DNA of 64,000 bases from assembly GCA_000165345.1 (NCBI GenBank), contig CM000429.1, positions 64,001 to 128,000 on the forward strand, read 5' to 3'. The notes below the pieces were generated by a model that was given only the letters and a program-made list of their open reading frames with translations, ran no database searches and was not told the origin of the DNA. The position numbers and the translations under genes are program-made. Numbering within the stretch: the stretch's first letter is position 1; each line of letters opens with the position of its first letter. Below are positions 495 through 61,872 of the stretch, in pieces.

Positions 495-510
495 TGGCGC
501 CAAAATCTCA
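495..510. promoter_or_regulatory. E2F-like palindromic box TTGGCGCCAAAA, about 60 bp upstream of the ZNF207-like ATG.
   Basis: ttggcgccaaaatctc is a GC island in an AT-rich promoter. The same motif family recurs upstream of most genes in the window. Confidence 0.4.
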
Positions 511-564
511 ATGCATATTTTAATATTCAAGAATAATACTGCTTAAAAAACTTTTTTTTCCATA

Positions 565-1364
565 ATGGGTAGGAAAAAAAGGAAGATAGCTGAAATCAAA
601 CCATTTTGTTACTATTGTAACCGCGAGTTTGGAGATGAAAAGGTTTTGAAACAGCACCAAAAAGTGAGACATTTGAAATGCTTACACTGCAGTAGAAAGC
701 TTTCAACTGTTTCTGGATTAATTGTTCACATGCTACAGGTAAGTTGGAATTTTAAATCTTCAAAAATTTATAGCTAAGATTGATGAATTAATTCATCCCA
801 ATATTTTAGGTCCACAAAGAGACTTTATCTAGAATTCCAAATGCCATTCCTGGACGTGACATTCCGGATATTGTAATTAATGGTATGAAAGGAGTACCTT
901 CTGAATTAATAGAAGAAAGAATAAAGAAACAGAATGTGGAAATAGATATACAAAAAAATCTAAAAAGTTATAATCCTCATGGAAATAAGATGATGGCATT
1001 AATGAACGAGGTTGCGACAAATTTTGTTAAGGAACACAGTAAGTTTAAATTCAGTAATTACTTAGAATTTTAAATCCTCAAAAATTAAACTTCAGATCTA
1101 GGGGATATACGCGTTCCAGGAATGTATGGAGGCCCAGAATTCATCTTTGGAGCAATGCTTCCCTTCCCAAATCAAAAACCAATCCCAGGTGTAATGGTTC
1201 AAAGGGAGAATGAGAATTTGGGGAAAACATCAAAAAATTACGAGCTCATAATGGTCCTAGAAGATTCAGATACTTCTCCGGAGGAATTGTATGCATCAAA
1301 ACTATTTTCTTACAAGATAATTAGAAAGCATGCACCAATTAATATTTCGCTTATTAAAAAGTAA
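565..1364 (+). CDS. ZNF207: ZNF207/BuGZ-like C2H2 zinc-finger protein, 3 exons: 565..738, 810..1038, 1096..1364 (acceptor alternatively at 1101/1102; both are in frame).
   Basis: Exon 1 MGRKKRKIAEIKPFCYYCNREFGDEKVLKQHQKVRHLKCLHCSRKLSTVSGLIVHMLQ then exon 2 VHKETLSRIPNAIPGRDIPDIVINGMKGVPSELIEERIKKQ... match the BuGZ N-terminus ([56 protein letters not shown]). Donors are cag|gtaagt (739) and aca|gtaagt (1039); the first acceptor is ttttag|g (809). Confidence 0.75.
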
Positions 1365-61700: not shown

Positions 61701-61757
61701 AATGACTCAGAATACAATAAATTTAGACTCATCTTTGGTAATCAACTTTTGATTTAA
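52770..61757 (+). CDS. Giant (~2995 aa) N-terminally membrane-anchored, Asn-rich protein; possibly a bridge-like lipid-transfer protein (BLTP/Csf1/Hobbit-like), low confidence. ATG at 52770 (track start at 52734 is TTG).
   Basis: Single uninterrupted 9-kb ORF. N-terminal TM VLQIILSIILIIFSLLCIFVHIL directly after the start. Long predicted beta-rich stretches separated by poly-N and low-complexity inserts. The conserved-looking C-terminal block (ILYFNYLRISSILVEVTYRGSVSLNNVLLELSSFTQRRK...) resembles the architecture of N-anchored giant BLTPs. Confidence 0.7.
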   Translation: MSVLQIILSIILIIFSLLCIFVHILKQFLQKKGFEVSFSGFFSLGNLKIKILEKYLKKYDNISGFEFFLSKISIRFQSWKLKFILYESKCICFILNGNHFKNKQFDHHLSQYSRLQNHSSRKTNIGTDDNSIGIIRNLMLIVTAQIISRIILFELENIQFQFYMVDCKCIGNHRNLKITQDGRCEKCGIQMKYGIYSKLDINSLSIFPKAYFGGIMVNFLINNPVLYLNPIENTISEKRCHTFYLNSNNKYNSSSNHKTSILNYILNQFYMKNNKTISKKCHSNQNNYPPLIYIDNNLNIKLKLMHSMSGSDIRVCILRNVNIEMNQLWITLIPEIICELVYIFHTIKSNFKNLNKISFNKNNLQVLDPNIINQSDPIIKLSPKYQLLSNNVLPISPIPLASPSSPSIISSSNSYSHSPLPPSFGNFENKVPRNKKKLIMNENLDRQLQITFKISQPSLIFCDNTQSSSGFEILFHEFEAHLIIQYFIEYLQSTLKLYNQDYDFESSNSEISDFNIIGNESNHFDLDTTDLKKKTRRSLKLVFGSKLIFGNSILYLNPKESHYFSKQIMPNTIKDGDFTFDRMFVIEHYKSIVEISDNNFVKLYLKSSIQRMFGIWRENGFYQNLTLFLQLIKFQKYLSKIKNQVNIDNSGNSNNNNNNNNNNNIEKPFIDQATEEIPKLPSRVELEDDDILKSDFLIKNNKYLKEIMTIKDFAVNLLFYLEIKDITIQTNDINCFNHELHILKKNDCSNNHCENCFIESFGPKERYEWRTDFDYESDTKFNMKIKKDDNDTDHDNHNDDKFFILKINNLKICNTSINRSFSMLFSDLDLYSMNEFIDLEDISTKYLNLPSCLKHNHDILDFQKTCIYRYGCFDQRIQVLNFEISPKIRDKNHLVKLCESIIISPWDYKRISLRFKGINGNLHTCYIPIYLYILGCFSIDCLALKKNNLNKVYYGINNQFEENFDFYCNQRFNYFEKFNEIKNDISNIIREFNPQELKNRNIQFWNIPDLIQSKVGSLKYTWYFDFDDITVNFLDGFKLLVNKLSLYRCNEYGNYDIKMNNVKIFDIFGINIINSNCIRLRSDIPYKSTKIKSPICLKKQLRRILDLSVNGDLLLLSILGNTEKSENNLKDINNGMIFFDSKRFILEIDKLDILFFVNCEYMESFFKYFYQYIYITYYQLFHPPLIIRTGKLLSFSRNHPIIFSCNNIFDFSITKMNLSLISLANFMLSQNFERFSLGSSVYRNKIYSKDDLYIQNNFKFDNSLNHKIKFGINNIFNLPIFELKLDNLRLIIRTKHTSNSKSVCNDRECYNIPNYLTNSMISEEGFLINSSYNPINIFVSLFGISFNLYNQLNLYKSRTTIQSRKEITFFSENIVIDFRRNYSHVDSNINGDFPELSSDVTISIYSKSKTSVNLSNASSFKAIKFINPIFEMIKNCPNFKSKFQKSNCEVFSKEFKNIIISRNTLIISIITSDLTSLYLVPYINLQSEREMSENSSVCIQLPKIEFYLKKYNNSHVENQEINNFLSQIESSSLFLKEGILIWILSKEIFAPVSNKKLQCRLSSILNSKNQKYSLKSTLVSISKFNINTQRNTYNNFNIKLDLDGLDKKSIIERCFGNDFNNGDNTQNMVIPLTLNLDSEKLIQLSTILESFLDESNFDSISIYYCEDCNKFKPTKSESLLRSQKVLNLDQKSLSHEKNNNQPELNFKLKISLNYINLRYEIFSLIINHVLLDLRYCNSKIGNLKLGIKETQLIAEYFPYKLSQFSKSSQSFKILRESSIQISSNFSAKTKMLEIARIGSIFFDNNNDSILLVLRAPQFSLSTLTIIYLEVLIKIINMLKLKSKRVPFKNEKSSLSPINNTSSIPLISGRKLNIQINEIMFNMHNLGTFRDYTIQRDDRKFRLGSSYSGFKKINIVPDLDTQSEFLFQVIERNPINSTFTLVDDLEESNTNLDIFKGNNGQSCLECRYHLNKALIYTSRISTDLKDNNHFRGNTNINISNCNNNSSSSNSQFDEIFRNYCNDYFSLLDEHVISDKYQKSSFEMIQEYKRICLYTESNISIPLEYGQITDYMILGEFGYGIKSDHISLSRSFKQIITRIPRVDCSIGIHDRNKNFEFVLKIFPVSIDVFLSNRLIWDLFGECTLEDLFDINKEDHPRIFPEISNYYCCRSEESFQWDDHNCQAHPHSQNDCSRIISDIPHVIKSNENFEVVTENFLSSSSSSSPPLALIEEFQSDRKRSLYDSTQEILKTTPIFVSIRIHTEKPSTQLKMYSKLLSVSIDSSRVQSINEILNSFELRNINTNKNNPSYQVSNNISNHPSTLTSSNNTTINNHPMSVLSNTMNSVAGGNLPPPIYYSHNLNPTNSIVSSGDQAQNLSSHISQQGYNFNAYPTAKTPSVLSFSNYFYDQKQEQGQRINAMNLLNLNNKTKNANPKSNSLDFNANRLLLNCDLNDKNVMNMLKFEIDKFLADNPLFYTVVDNIQCQAGGDNNHLNQYRLQIECIVDQLNVDMFINNKRFSNFQSKDINFVMFSNNNPSNSTIIEFDTSFIHLSANKDFVQSNGNSNVIPGTNGVGSGVVSGNNNSNYNNQINFNISNSNLNPNSNNIFNANGNGIGNGNVNSNIIGEGGTGLNHNNSGLNVSSVSTIENSINATSQEEISIIHPMYIDGHTSQGHGHVLSIRINMRQVRLLEVYNIRILESVVIRVHPIRVNITQYLTSCYYDIFFPPPITNQPSMTSIQIGSNTQNFLQMSNVASEAASSKIKEDNAIYAENSYIINSNTNSDITIPTIEQENSSLTFNNQQPQNNNTSVDTQNCSKNILYFNYLRISSILVEVTYRGSVSLNNVLLELSSFTQRRKHRTVKEMVDKYISFLRRQAARPVISYTFKQLRHSLLPKHFKSHKRNSNYNSHYDIIQANIQNNHLNNGNERSLKIDSSYQDLLSETTNNGNHSNYNNNINSILSKNDDDLPNTYRKIQNTNCSKNDSEYNKFRLIFGNQLLI

Positions 61758-61781
61758 TTGCTTCAACTGACTGCTTTGCAA

Positions 61782-61872
61782 CTCCCGCCCACTATTCCTC
61801 TTGTAATTATCTGCATGCGACCAAGTACATGCAAAAAAACACTTGCAATATACCGGCATTGGTTGGCGCCAT
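61782..61872. promoter_or_regulatory. Composite GC-motif cluster (CTCCCGCCC ... TGCATGCG ... ATACCGGCA ... TTGGCGCCA) between the giant gene and the TCAB1-like gene.
   Basis: actcccgcccactatt...ctgcatgcgacc...atataccggcattggttggcgccatacgtggg: all four recurrent motif types sit within 90 bp, about 260 bp upstream of the ATG at 62130. Confidence 0.45.

What the first reader, a model, noticed from the sequence alone, without database searches (positions are those of the whole stretch)
495..61872. Recurrent GC-rich E2F-like palindromes mark nearly every promoter
In an otherwise 75-85% AT intergenic background, almost every 5' region contains one or more short GC islands drawn from a small vocabulary:
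- TTTGGCGCC / TGGCGCCA palindromes at 495, 2572, 4741, 29064, 40346, 49087, 52328, 52343, 61863.
- TTTAGGCGGGA / TTTTGGCGGGA at 13862, 29081, 31256, 36344, 42192.
- TTTTACCGCC or its inverted-repeat form at 11742, 24463, 48718, 50631.
- A perfect 16-bp palindrome ATGGCGCGCGCGCCAT at 19849.
TTTSSCGC is the E2F/DP consensus. Its presence upstream of housekeeping genes of all kinds, not only S-phase genes, and the frequent inverted-repeat pairing suggest a general core-promoter role for an E2F/DP-like or other GC-box factor. This motif set, together with TGCATGCA, is most reminiscent of Cryptosporidium-type apicomplexan promoters. That taxonomic reading is an inference from the motif vocabulary, not from any database match.
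Basis: seen in the sequence. Interest (0 to 1): 0.6.

Follow-up and report, generated by a model that had tools for sequence, protein, structure and literature searches.

The report
Known E2F-like promoter motifs in Cryptosporidium
The short GC-rich words upstream of most genes in this window are real, strongly non-random and conserved between species, but they are the E2F-like promoter motifs of Cryptosporidium parvum, already published as the most abundant upstream motif of that genome, so this is a correct rediscovery and not a new finding.

Summary
The window is Cryptosporidium parvum chromosome 1, shown by exact protein matches.

**Observation.** Every quoted coordinate checks out.
- TGGCGCCA occurs 6 times against 0.06 expected.
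- The core set GGCGCC/GGCGGG/GGCGGT/GGCGCG gives 29 hits in 16.8 kb of non-coding DNA against about 3 expected.
- On a gene map curated from NCBI annotations, there are 27 sites in intergenic regions that contain a gene start (2.2/kb), 1 in regions between two gene ends (0.25/kb) and 5 inside genes (0.11/kb).
- Sites lie 52-419 bp upstream of the start codon, median 232 bp.
- Sixteen of 22 promoter-bearing regions and 24 of 31 genes carry a core. "Nearly every promoter" is therefore somewhat overstated.

**Conservation.** The sites persist as conserved islands in syntenic C. ubiquitum, C. felis and C. bovis DNA. They are much sparser in C. muris and C. andersoni.

**Prior knowledge.** All of this is published: Oberstaller 2013/2014, Mullapudi 2007, Li 2021, and the Xiao 2025 ATAC-seq study. 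Cryptosporidium is the only apicomplexan reported to keep E2F/DP. I found no direct demonstration that E2F/DP binds these sites.

**Possibly new, minor.** Cores often come in pairs 13-14 bp apart, and an ACCGCC-N7-GGCGGT inverted repeat is conserved.

Novelty: already known. Interest: low.

The parts
495..502 (.). TGGCGCCA palindrome, 64 bp upstream of the ATG (565) of a BuGZ-like C2H2 zinc-finger gene
   Evidence: A GGCGCC or GGCGCG core is kept at the orthologous place in C. ubiquitum, C. felis and C. bovis.
2560..2579 (.). Pair GGCGCG-N7-GGCGCC, 13 bp start to start, in the 161-bp divergent promoter between the SDR gene (-) and the UCH gene (+)
   Evidence: Alignment A1 shows GCGCGCCTTCGAT conserved in four intestinal species. 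C. ubiquitum keeps the 13-bp pair.
4704..4747 (.). Two GGCGCC cores (4704, 4742) plus a weaker GGCGCT (4718), 168-206 bp upstream of the ribosomal protein S21e gene (4193-4536, minus strand, has an intron, missed by a plain ORF scan)
   Evidence: GGCGCC is kept upstream of RPS21e in C. ubiquitum and C. felis. C. bovis has a GGCGCC in the corresponding AP-endonuclease-to-UCH interval, where no RPS21e gene is annotated.
8293..8301 (-). TTTCCCGCC (GGCGGGAAA on the minus strand), 370 bp upstream of the oxysterol-binding protein gene
   Evidence: GGCGGG in C. ubiquitum and GGCGCC in C. bovis in the same interval.
11742..11767 (.). Inverted repeat TTTTACCGCC-N8-GGCGGTA in the divergent CDC48/Josephin promoter
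   Evidence: GGCGGTAAAATG is kept in C. ubiquitum and ACCGCC in C. felis.
13864..13871 (+). GGCGGGAA, 246 bp upstream of the RRM_11 gene
   Evidence: GGCGGG is present in this interval in C. ubiquitum, C. bovis, C. muris and C. andersoni.
19850..19865 (.). 16-bp perfect palindrome ATGGCGCGCGCGCCAT, 52 bp upstream of the Noc2 gene
   Evidence: Alignment A2: GGCGCGCGCGCC in C. ubiquitum, GGCGCGAGCGCC in C. felis, CGCGCC in C. bovis, GGCGCG in C. muris and C. andersoni.
24461..24472 (-). CATTTTACCGCC (GGCGGTAAAATG on the minus strand), 232 bp upstream of the hypothetical 270-aa gene and 601 bp from Coq4
   Evidence: C. felis has GGCGGTAAAT 206 bp from its hyp270 gene end, in the hyp270/M14 interval of that annotation.
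29065..29089 (.). TGGCGCCA plus TTTTGGCGGGA, 17 bp apart, in the divergent UBC E2/proteasome-subunit promoter
31258..31263 (+). GGCGGG in the divergent EMP24/signal-peptidase promoter
36343..36349 (+). TTTAGGCGGGAA, 189 bp upstream of the hypothetical 604-aa gene
36570..36578 (.). TTTGGCGCC in the same divergent region (hyp604/hyp932)
   Evidence: GGCGCC is kept in C. ubiquitum and C. felis.
40346..40351 (.). GGCGCC in a convergent 3'-3' region. This is the only strict core that is not upstream of an annotated gene.
   Evidence: C. ubiquitum also has a GGCGCC in this interval, at a different place. E2F motifs upstream of antisense and long non-coding RNAs are reported in PMC7840661.
42192..42202 (+). 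TTTAGGCGGGA, 139 bp upstream of the hypothetical 324-aa gene
   Evidence: GGCGGGAAATG is kept in C. ubiquitum and C. felis.
48718..48740 (.). Inverted repeat TTACCGCC-N7-GGCGGTAA, 172-185 bp upstream of V-ATPase subunit c copy 1
   Evidence: Alignment A3: both arms and the 13-bp spacing are invariant in three species while the spacer varies. The repeat sits in a conserved block of about 65 bp that also holds a TGGGGG G-box.
49087..49109 (.). Pair GGCGCC-N8-GGCGCC, 72-86 bp upstream of Nop10
   Evidence: C. ubiquitum has two GGCGCC 10 bp apart and C. felis has one.
50634..50665 (-). TTTTACCGCCATGAGACA plus CCCGCC, 262-284 bp upstream of V-ATPase subunit c copy 2
   Evidence: ACCGCCATGAGAC is conserved in C. 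ubiquitum and C. felis, with a second core 21-23 bp away.
52330..52350 (.). Pair TGGCGCCA-N-TTGGCGCC, 14 bp apart, in the divergent zf-C2H2_jaz/2995-aa gene promoter
   Evidence: C. ubiquitum has a pair 12 bp apart and C. felis has a single site.
61784..61871 (.). CCCGCC (61784) and TGGCGCCA (61864), 342 and 261 bp upstream of a WD40 CDC20-like gene (ATG 62131)

Best explanation
These are the E2F-like cis-regulatory elements of Cryptosporidium parvum promoters. They are short sites with a GGCG(C/G)(C/G/T) core, a T-rich 5' flank and an A-rich 3' flank: TTGGCGCCAA, TTAGGCGGGAA, TTTTGGCGGTAA and GGCGCGCGCGCC. They lie a few hundred bases upstream of start codons in compact, often bidirectional, intergenic regions. 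The most likely mechanism is that E2F/DP winged-helix heterodimers bind them and help open chromatin and drive transcription of a broad set of housekeeping genes. Cryptosporidium is reported to be the only apicomplexan to retain these factors (two annotated E2F and two DP genes). Palindromic sites could serve both genes of a divergent pair.

**Shown here:** the motifs exist, they are massively enriched, they are confined to 5' intergenic DNA, and they are conserved across species.

**Shown in the literature:** genome-wide over-representation, location in ATAC-seq open-chromatin peaks, and presence and expression of the E2F/DP genes.

**Inferred:** that E2F/DP is the factor that binds them, and that binding activates transcription.
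For: **Identity of the window.** Exact protein matches to C. parvum. The DNA maps to CP029780.1 and CP044422.1.

**Enrichment.**

**5' specificity.** 2.2 sites/kb in 5' intergenic regions, 0.25/kb in convergent regions and 0.11/kb in genic DNA.

**Site shape.** Flank consensus is TTGGCGCC..A, TTAGGCGGGAA and TTTTGGCGGTAA. This fits the E2F consensus TTTSSCGC. It also fits TTTGGCGGG, which PMC3734150 cites as a site shown to direct E2F/DP binding in Arabidopsis.

**Conservation.**
- Presence or absence of a core per intergenic region agrees between C. parvum and C. ubiquitum (13/0/2/7, Fisher p = 2e-4).
- It also agrees between C. parvum and C. felis (10/2/0/7, p = 7e-4).
- In alignments A1-A3 the cores are conserved islands in otherwise diverged spacers.

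**Literature.**
- PMC3734150.
- PMC4117751: the E2F motif lies upstream of 161 of 200 clusters, and it is not counted among the motifs bound by AP2 domains.
- bioRxiv 2025.01.17.633476: E2F is the most prominent motif in ATAC-seq regulatory peaks, and more than half of those peaks are bidirectional promoters.
- Review PMC12246861.
Against: - In the papers I read, no ChIP, CUT&RUN, EMSA or binding-array result shows a Cryptosporidium E2F/DP protein on these sites. The 2013 paper and the 2025 review both describe the assignment as unvalidated.
- No E2F_TDP domain protein is encoded in this window, so the factor could not be examined here.
- About a quarter of the promoters in the window lack a strict core.
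- The GGCGGT(AA) class departs from the canonical E2F core.
- The gastric species C. muris and C. andersoni have only 2 strict cores in the 22-kb syntenic block, against 9-10 in the intestinal species C. bovis and C. ubiquitum. Usage is therefore not uniform across the genus.
- Position and orientation relative to the ATG vary, which argues against a strictly positioned core-promoter element.
Confidence: 0.8

Rival explanations
1. The motifs are real promoter elements, but a factor other than E2F/DP binds them. Candidates are a zinc-finger, CXC, Myb or uncharacterised protein that happens to prefer GGCGCC/GGCGGG.
For: No direct binding data exist. The papers note that most E2F partner proteins, including Rb-pathway members, are missing in C. 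parvum. The motif lies upstream of genes with every expression profile, which is unusual for E2F.
Against: The flank-plus-core shape matches E2F sites in detail. E2F/DP genes are present and expressed. In the papers read, both the motif abundance and the retention of E2F/DP are reported as peculiar to Cryptosporidium among apicomplexans. PMC4117751 does not list the E2F motif among those bound by the AP2 domains it tested.
Confidence: 0.1
2. The GGCGGT(AA) words, especially the inverted repeat TTACCGCC-N7/8-GGCGGTAA and the 12-mer GGCGGTAAAATG, are a separate element read by a different dimeric factor and are not E2F sites. This would apply to that subclass only and is compatible with the main explanation for the other classes.
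For: GGCGGTAAAATG occurs three times (11748, 24465, 50640). The inverted repeat keeps both arms and its 13-bp spacing in three species while the spacer changes. GGCGGT and ACCGCC are not mentioned in the main text of the 2013 or 2014 motif papers. The T after GGCGG departs from [C/G]GCGC[G/C] and from GGCGGG.
Against: TTTTACCGCC differs from the canonical TTTCCCGCC at a single base. The flanks are the same T-rich/A-rich type. The class mixes with GGCGGG at 50638/50660, and at the orthologous second site C. felis has ACCGCC where C. parvum has CCCGCC. That suggests the two are interchangeable.
Confidence: 0.25
3. The GC islands are not protein-binding sites. On this view they are a by-product of composition, such as nucleosome-excluding or structural DNA, biased gene conversion, or repeat remnants.
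For: They are GC islands in AT-rich DNA. Some are palindromes that could form cruciforms.
Against: The vocabulary is narrow and exact: four related 6-mers out of all GC-rich words. GGCG followed by other bases is found mostly in coding DNA. The sites are confined to 5' regions. They are conserved at orthologous places while their flanks diverge. No extended repeat family is involved.
Confidence: 0.03

Closest known systems
E2F-like upstream motif family of Cryptosporidium parvum (Oberstaller et al. 2013, BMC Genomics 14:516; Bankier 2003 as cited there; Xiao et al. 2025 preprint)
   Same: Same organism and the same words: 5'-TGGCGCCA-3', [C/G]GCGC[G/C] and GGCGGG. Same location upstream of genes of many functional classes, including ribosomal-protein genes. 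Same co-occurrence with TGCATGCA (AP2_1) and the G-box.
   Different: Nothing essential. This window adds only local detail: the exact sites, cross-species footprints, 13-14-bp pairing and the GGCGGTAA variant.
Canonical E2F/DP binding sites of animals and plants (TTTSSCGC; TTTCCCGCC and TTTGGCGGG in Arabidopsis)
   Same: A GC core with T-rich and A-rich flanks, a palindromic TTTGGCGCCAAA-type form, and frequent double sites.
   Different: In animals and plants the sites mark mainly cell-cycle and DNA-synthesis genes and are controlled through Rb-family pocket proteins. Here they lie upstream of about three quarters of all genes in the window, and PMC3734150 reports that most E2F partner proteins are absent in C. 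parvum. Binding by the Cryptosporidium proteins has not been shown.
Paired inverted E2F sites of the adenovirus E2 early promoter
   Same: Two E2F cores at a short fixed distance, in inverted orientation, thought to allow cooperative occupancy.
   Different: The viral pair depends on a viral bridging protein (E4 orf6/7) and has a somewhat different spacing. Here the 13-14-bp pairs occur in cellular promoters, and cooperativity is only conjecture.
ApiAP2 site TGCATGCA (AP2_1), bound by cgd2_3490 and other C. parvum AP2 domains
   Same: It is the other strongly enriched palindrome in the same intergenic regions (11 observed, 0.56 expected).
   Different: The word is different and its binding factor is experimentally assigned. 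In this window it is not depleted from 3'-3' regions (1.49/kb against 0.81/kb in 5' regions), unlike the E2F-like cores.

Membership tests
Cryptosporidium E2F-like upstream motif family (Oberstaller 2013) | The sequence comes from Cryptosporidium | tested here: met
   Exact matches to C. parvum CDC48, OSBP and Exo5. The DNA maps to C. parvum chromosome 1 records CP029780.1 and CP044422.1.
Cryptosporidium E2F-like upstream motif family (Oberstaller 2013) | Words TGGCGCCA / [C/G]GCGC[G/C] / GGCGGG | tested here: met
   There are 12 GGCGCC, 8 GGCGGG and 3 GGCGCG non-coding sites. The additional 6 GGCGGT sites are not named in that paper's main text.
Cryptosporidium E2F-like upstream motif family (Oberstaller 2013) | Over-represented in upstream non-coding regions relative to background | tested here: met
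   29 observed against 3.1 expected. 2.2/kb in 5' intergenic regions, 0.25/kb in 3'-3' regions and 0.11/kb in genic DNA.
E2F/DP transcription-factor binding site (general) | Consensus TTTSSCGC-like core with T-rich and A-rich flanks | tested here: met
   Flank consensus. There are 10 strict TTTSSCGC matches against 1.37 expected. The GGCGGT class fits only approximately.
E2F/DP transcription-factor binding site (general) | E2F and DP winged-helix proteins are encoded by the genome | not testable with these tools
   None of the 26 window ORFs scanned against Pfam has an E2F_TDP domain. The rest of the genome was not available to me. The literature lists two E2F genes (cgd1_1570/cpbgf_1001560 and cgd6_1430/cpbgf_6001430) and two DP genes.
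E2F/DP transcription-factor binding site (general) | Physical binding of E2F/DP to the sites | not testable with these tools
   None of the papers read reports a binding experiment. The 2013 authors call for ChIP-seq, and the 2025 review says most regulatory components lack functional validation.
E2F/DP transcription-factor binding site (general) | Target genes restricted to cell-cycle and DNA-replication functions, with Rb-dependent control | tested here: not met
   Cores lie upstream of RPS21e, V-ATPase c, CDC48, a proteasome subunit, Nop10, signal peptidase and others. PMC3734150 reports that most E2F partner proteins are absent in C. parvum. This restriction describes E2F regulons in animals and plants and is not a property of the DNA site itself. 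The sites may therefore work like E2F sites while being deployed far more broadly.
Functional cis-regulatory element (general) | Purifying selection: the site is kept at orthologous positions while the flanks diverge | tested here: met
   for C. ubiquitum, C. felis and C. bovis. The signal is weaker in C. muris and C. andersoni, where only the Noc2 and RRM_11 promoters keep strict cores.

The most novel reading that the evidence does not exclude
E2F-like cores in Cryptosporidium promoters may be organised preferentially as composite double sites with a fixed 13-14-bp start-to-start spacing (7-8-bp spacer). The conserved inverted repeat TTACCGCC-N7-GGCGGTAA is one example. This would imply cooperative binding of two heterodimers, or a distinct dimeric factor for the GGCGGTAA half-site. 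I did not find this architecture described in the papers I read. The evidence is five such pairs in one 64-kb window, with the spacing bin chosen after seeing the data, plus spacing conserved in three species for one pair and in two for another. At two other pairs the spacing is not conserved.
Probability: 0.25. Interest if true: 0.35.

Novelty: already known. Interest (0 to 1): 0.15.

Why it matters
The biology is interesting. An apicomplexan appears to run much of its housekeeping transcription through an ancient E2F/DP system, where its relatives rely on the AP2 factors. That point has been made repeatedly in the literature since 2003-2013 and was reinforced by ATAC-seq in 2025.

This re-examination adds three things:
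- Confirmation that a reader without tools can identify the organism and its regulatory vocabulary from raw sequence.
- A local site-by-site map with cross-species footprints.
- Two small leads, the 13-14-bp paired sites and the conserved GGCGGTAA inverted repeat. Both could guide the design of the E2F/DP binding and reporter experiments that are still missing.

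Tried and rejected
- **Plain ORF map.** An ORF-only gene map placed the sites at 495, 4704 and 4742 in apparent 3' regions. NCBI annotations fetched through the look-up of encoding contigs showed intron-containing genes there, a zinc-finger gene and RPS21e, so these sites are ordinary upstream sites.
- **Non-coding RNA genes.** I looked for non-coding RNA genes that might explain the unannotated gaps or the orphan site at 40346. 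Rfam at gathering threshold and ARAGORN found nothing.
- **Window-encoded factor.** I checked whether any window gene encodes the putative factor. None of the 26 ORFs scanned has an E2F_TDP domain.
- **Orientation.** I considered whether the asymmetric GGCGGG sites have a fixed orientation relative to the downstream gene. By inspecting the positions, about four point towards the gene, two point away, and the rest lie in divergent regions. This matches the literature statement that no orientation or position pattern is seen.
- **Bankier 2003.** I tried to read it (PMC403770) to verify the first report on chromosome 6. The paper is not held, so it is cited only through PMC3734150 and PMC12246861.
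- **E2F protein search.** I ran no further search on a human E2F query. The 120 hits listed would all have been metazoan, so the search could not have shown the Cryptosporidium genes.
- **Chance.** Rejected by shuffles and simulation.

Full report
**What the window is.** The window is 29.7% GC and carries eukaryotic housekeeping genes, including CDC48, an oxysterol-binding protein, a UCH ubiquitin hydrolase, V-ATPase subunit c and Exo5. Three of its proteins are identical to Cryptosporidium parvum entries: CDC48 QOY43597, the oxysterol-binding protein, and Exo5, locus tag CPHLJ_1g500 in one C. parvum assembly. The DNA maps to C. parvum chromosome 1 records CP029780.1 and CP044422.1.

**Checking the observation.**
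- All 19 quoted positions carry the stated words, within a few bases.
- TGGCGCCA occurs 6 times against 0.06 expected from dinucleotide shuffles.
- GGCGGGA occurs 7 times against 0.53 expected.
- TTTSSCGC occurs 10 times against 1.37 expected.
- TGCATGCA occurs 11 times against 0.56 expected.
- An unbiased k-mer scan of non-coding DNA against an order-2 Markov expectation puts GGCGCC first (12 against 0.36, with one copy in coding DNA). CATGCA/GCATGC, GGCGGG (8 against 0.59, none in coding), CCGGTA/ACCGGT and GGCGGT rank high as well.
- The tetramer GGCG is 3.6 times denser in non-coding than in genic DNA, although non-coding DNA is poorer in GC. In non-coding DNA it is nearly always followed by CC, GG, GT or CG. 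In coding DNA the following bases are varied.
- The four-word core set gives 29 non-coding hits against 3.1 +/- 1.8 in simulations.

**Gene map and position.**
- A plain ORF map was misleading, so I built a 31-gene map from the NCBI annotations of two C. parvum assemblies.
- This recovered intron-containing genes that the ORF scan had missed: ribosomal protein S21e, a BuGZ-like zinc-finger gene, Nop10, a proteasome subunit, EMP24, signal peptidase, DUF842 and a second zinc-finger gene.
- On this map there are 33 distinct sites: 27 in the 12.4 kb of intergenic DNA that contains at least one gene 5' end, 1 in the 4.0 kb of convergent 3'-3' DNA, and 5 in the 47.2 kb of genic DNA.
- The binomial tests give p = 0.004 for 5' against 3' regions and p = 2.5e-14 for 5' regions against genic DNA.
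- Sites lie 52-419 bp from the nearest ATG they could serve, median 232 bp.
- Eight of nine divergent regions, seven of twelve tandem regions and the left-edge region carry a core. That is 16 of 22 promoter-bearing regions and 24 of 31 genes.
- A relaxed definition adds the AP-endonuclease upstream region (TTTCCCGC at 6045). A GGCGCC at 25462, inside the last 51 bp of the preceding gene, may serve the kinase gene.
- "Nearly every promoter" is therefore an overstatement of roughly "three in four".

**Shape of the sites.** Aligned on the core, three classes emerge: TTGGCGCC..A, TTAGGCGGGAA and (A)TTTTGGCGGTAA. There is also GGCGCG(CGCGCC), including the 16-bp palindrome at 19850-19865. All share a T-rich 5' flank and an A-rich 3' flank, as in the E2F consensus TTTSSCGC and in TTTGGCGGG. 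PMC3734150 cites TTTGGCGGG as a site shown to direct E2F/DP binding in Arabidopsis. The GGCGGT class differs from TTTCCCGCC by one base. Assigning it to E2F is an inference.

**Conservation.**
- I fetched the syntenic blocks around CDC48 from C. muris, C. andersoni, C. bovis, C. ubiquitum and C. felis, and around Exo5 from C. ubiquitum and C. felis. Gene order is conserved.
- Presence or absence of a core per intergenic region agrees between C. parvum and C. ubiquitum (13 both, 0 parvum only, 2 ubiquitum only, 7 neither; Fisher p = 2e-4).
- It also agrees between C. parvum and C. felis (10/2/0/7; p = 7e-4).
- In alignments the cores are islands of identity.
  - GCGCGCCTTCGAT and a neighbouring TGCATG are conserved in the UCH/SDR promoter of four species.
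  - GGCGCG(CGCGCC) upstream of Noc2 is present in all six species.
  - TTACCGCC-N7-GGCGGTA upstream of V-ATPase c copy 1 keeps both arms and the spacing in three species, while the seven spacer bases differ (ACAATTT, AAAATGT, GATTTTT).
- The gastric species C. muris and C. andersoni keep strict cores only upstream of Noc2 and RRM_11: 2 sites in 5.1 kb of non-coding DNA, against 9-10 in C. bovis and C. ubiquitum. They do show related words such as AGCGCGCT in the UCH/SDR promoter.

**Comparison with what is known.**
- The phenomenon is fully described.
- PMC3734150 names E2F (5'-TGGCGCCA-3'; core [C/G]GCGC[G/C]; GGCGGG) as the most over-represented upstream motif genome-wide, including upstream of ribosomal-protein genes.
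- That paper notes the motif was already seen in non-coding DNA of chromosome 6 in 2003. It also recalls that Cryptosporidium has E2F/DP proteins absent from other apicomplexans, and it proposes unusual reliance on E2F.
- PMC4117751 states that the motif lies upstream of 161 of 200 co-expression clusters, and it does not count it among the motifs bound by AP2 domains.
- PMC1779779 had found a GGCG-core motif upstream of glycolysis genes, with no position or orientation pattern.
- PMC7840661 finds the same motif within 100 bp upstream of many long non-coding and antisense RNAs. That is a ready explanation for the single orphan site at 40346.
- The 2025 preprint finds E2F to be the most prominent motif in sporozoite ATAC-seq regulatory peaks. 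More than half of those peaks are bidirectional promoters, and the preprint lists two E2F and two DP genes.
- The 2025 review tabulates the motif as [A/T][C/G]GCGC[G/C][A/T] and stresses that functional validation is lacking.
- I found no paper reporting direct binding.

**Mechanism.**
- Best-supported account: E2F/DP heterodimers recognise these sites and promote open chromatin and transcription at a broad set of promoters. Palindromic sites would suit the compact divergent promoters of this genome.
- Shown here: enrichment, 5' restriction and conservation.
- Shown in the literature: genome-wide abundance, ATAC-seq co-location, and presence and expression of the factors.
- Inferred: who binds the sites, and with what effect.
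- Rivals: another binding factor (about 0.1); a separate factor for the GGCGGTAA class only (about 0.25, compatible with the main account); a non-protein explanation (about 0.03).

**Side observations.**
- Five of the eight close pairs of cores are exactly 13 or 14 bp apart (2560/2573, 11746/11760, 48720/48733, 49090/49104, 52331/52345). A sixth pair uses the weaker GGCGCT (4704/4718).
- Randomising positions within each intergenic region gives a mean of 0.11 such pairs, and none of 20,000 trials reached five. The bin was chosen after seeing the data.
- The spacing is kept across species for the V-ATPase c inverted repeat and for the UCH/SDR pair. It is not kept for the Nop10 pair (10 bp in C. 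ubiquitum) or the zf-jaz/2995-aa pair (12 bp).
- GCATGC, unlike the E2F-like cores, is as dense in 3'-3' regions as in 5' regions.
- TACCGGTA is a further enriched palindrome that the papers I read do not name.

**Verdict.** The feature is already known, so interest is low. The pairing rule and the GGCGGTAA inverted repeat are the only possibly undescribed details, and they need genome-wide confirmation.

Noticed in passing
window 2560/2573, 4704/4718, 11746/11760, 48720/48733, 49090/49104, 52331/52345: E2F-like cores often come in pairs exactly 13-14 bp apart start to start. Five of eight close pairs fit this, against 0.11 expected when positions are randomised within each intergenic region. 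The bin was chosen after seeing the data. The spacing is conserved across species for two pairs and not for two others.
   Followed up: partly
window 48718-48740 (also 11742-11767); L020:14973-14991; L021:14653-14671: The inverted repeat TTACCGCC-N7-GGCGGTAA upstream of V-ATPase c copy 1 has invariant arms and spacing, with a variable spacer, in C. parvum, C. ubiquitum and C. felis. It sits in a conserved block of about 65 bp that also holds a TGGGGG G-box. GGCGGTAAAATG occurs three times in the window (11748, 24465, 50640).
   Followed up: partly
window 16710, 22717, 34201, 36358, 51252: A further enriched palindrome, TACCGGTA (core ACCGGT). The 8-mer occurs 4 times in non-coding DNA against 0.07 expected. 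The words CCGGTA and ACCGGT do not appear in the main text of the 2013 and 2014 C. parvum motif papers. AGCTGTAG/CTACAGCT is also enriched (5 against 0.16).
   Followed up: no
window 30201-30220, 16732, 40530, 47455: TGCATGCA/GCATGC (the AP2_1 motif) is not depleted from convergent 3'-3' regions (1.49/kb against 0.81/kb in 5' regions). Two copies lie 12 bp apart in the 142-bp gap between the 3' ends of the proteasome-subunit and EMP24 genes. This contrasts with the 5' restriction of the E2F-like cores and could reflect antisense or non-coding RNA promoters, or a 3'-end function.
   Followed up: no
L015 (C. muris) and L019 (C. andersoni), whole 22-kb loci: The gastric Cryptosporidium species have only 2 strict E2F-like cores in the syntenic block (0.39/kb of non-coding DNA), against 1.2-1.75/kb in C. 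bovis and C. ubiquitum. They also carry an extra Sdh5 gene between the OSBP and AP-endonuclease genes.
   Followed up: partly
window 48051-48548 and 49879-50376: Two tandem copies of V-ATPase subunit c (165 aa each) with Nop10 between them. The arrangement is conserved in C. ubiquitum. C. felis also has both V-ATPase copies, but Nop10 is not annotated there. Both promoters share a TTGTCTC(A/T)TGG word next to their ACCGCC cores.
   Followed up: no
window 15825-17289 and 40018-40965: Two long convergent gaps (1.47 kb and 0.95 kb) have no annotated gene, no Rfam hit and no tRNA. They do carry promoter-type motifs: ACCGGT and TGCATGCA at 16710-16739, and GGCGCC at 40346 with GCATGC at 40530. They are candidate unannotated or non-coding transcripts.
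   Followed up: partly
window 37219-40017: The 932-aa hypothetical protein is 930 aa and 928 aa in two other C. parvum assemblies. Its exact sequence is not in the protein collection. This suggests strain-variable length, and the gene is the most GC-rich stretch of the window (40.8% at 38-40 kb).
   Followed up: no
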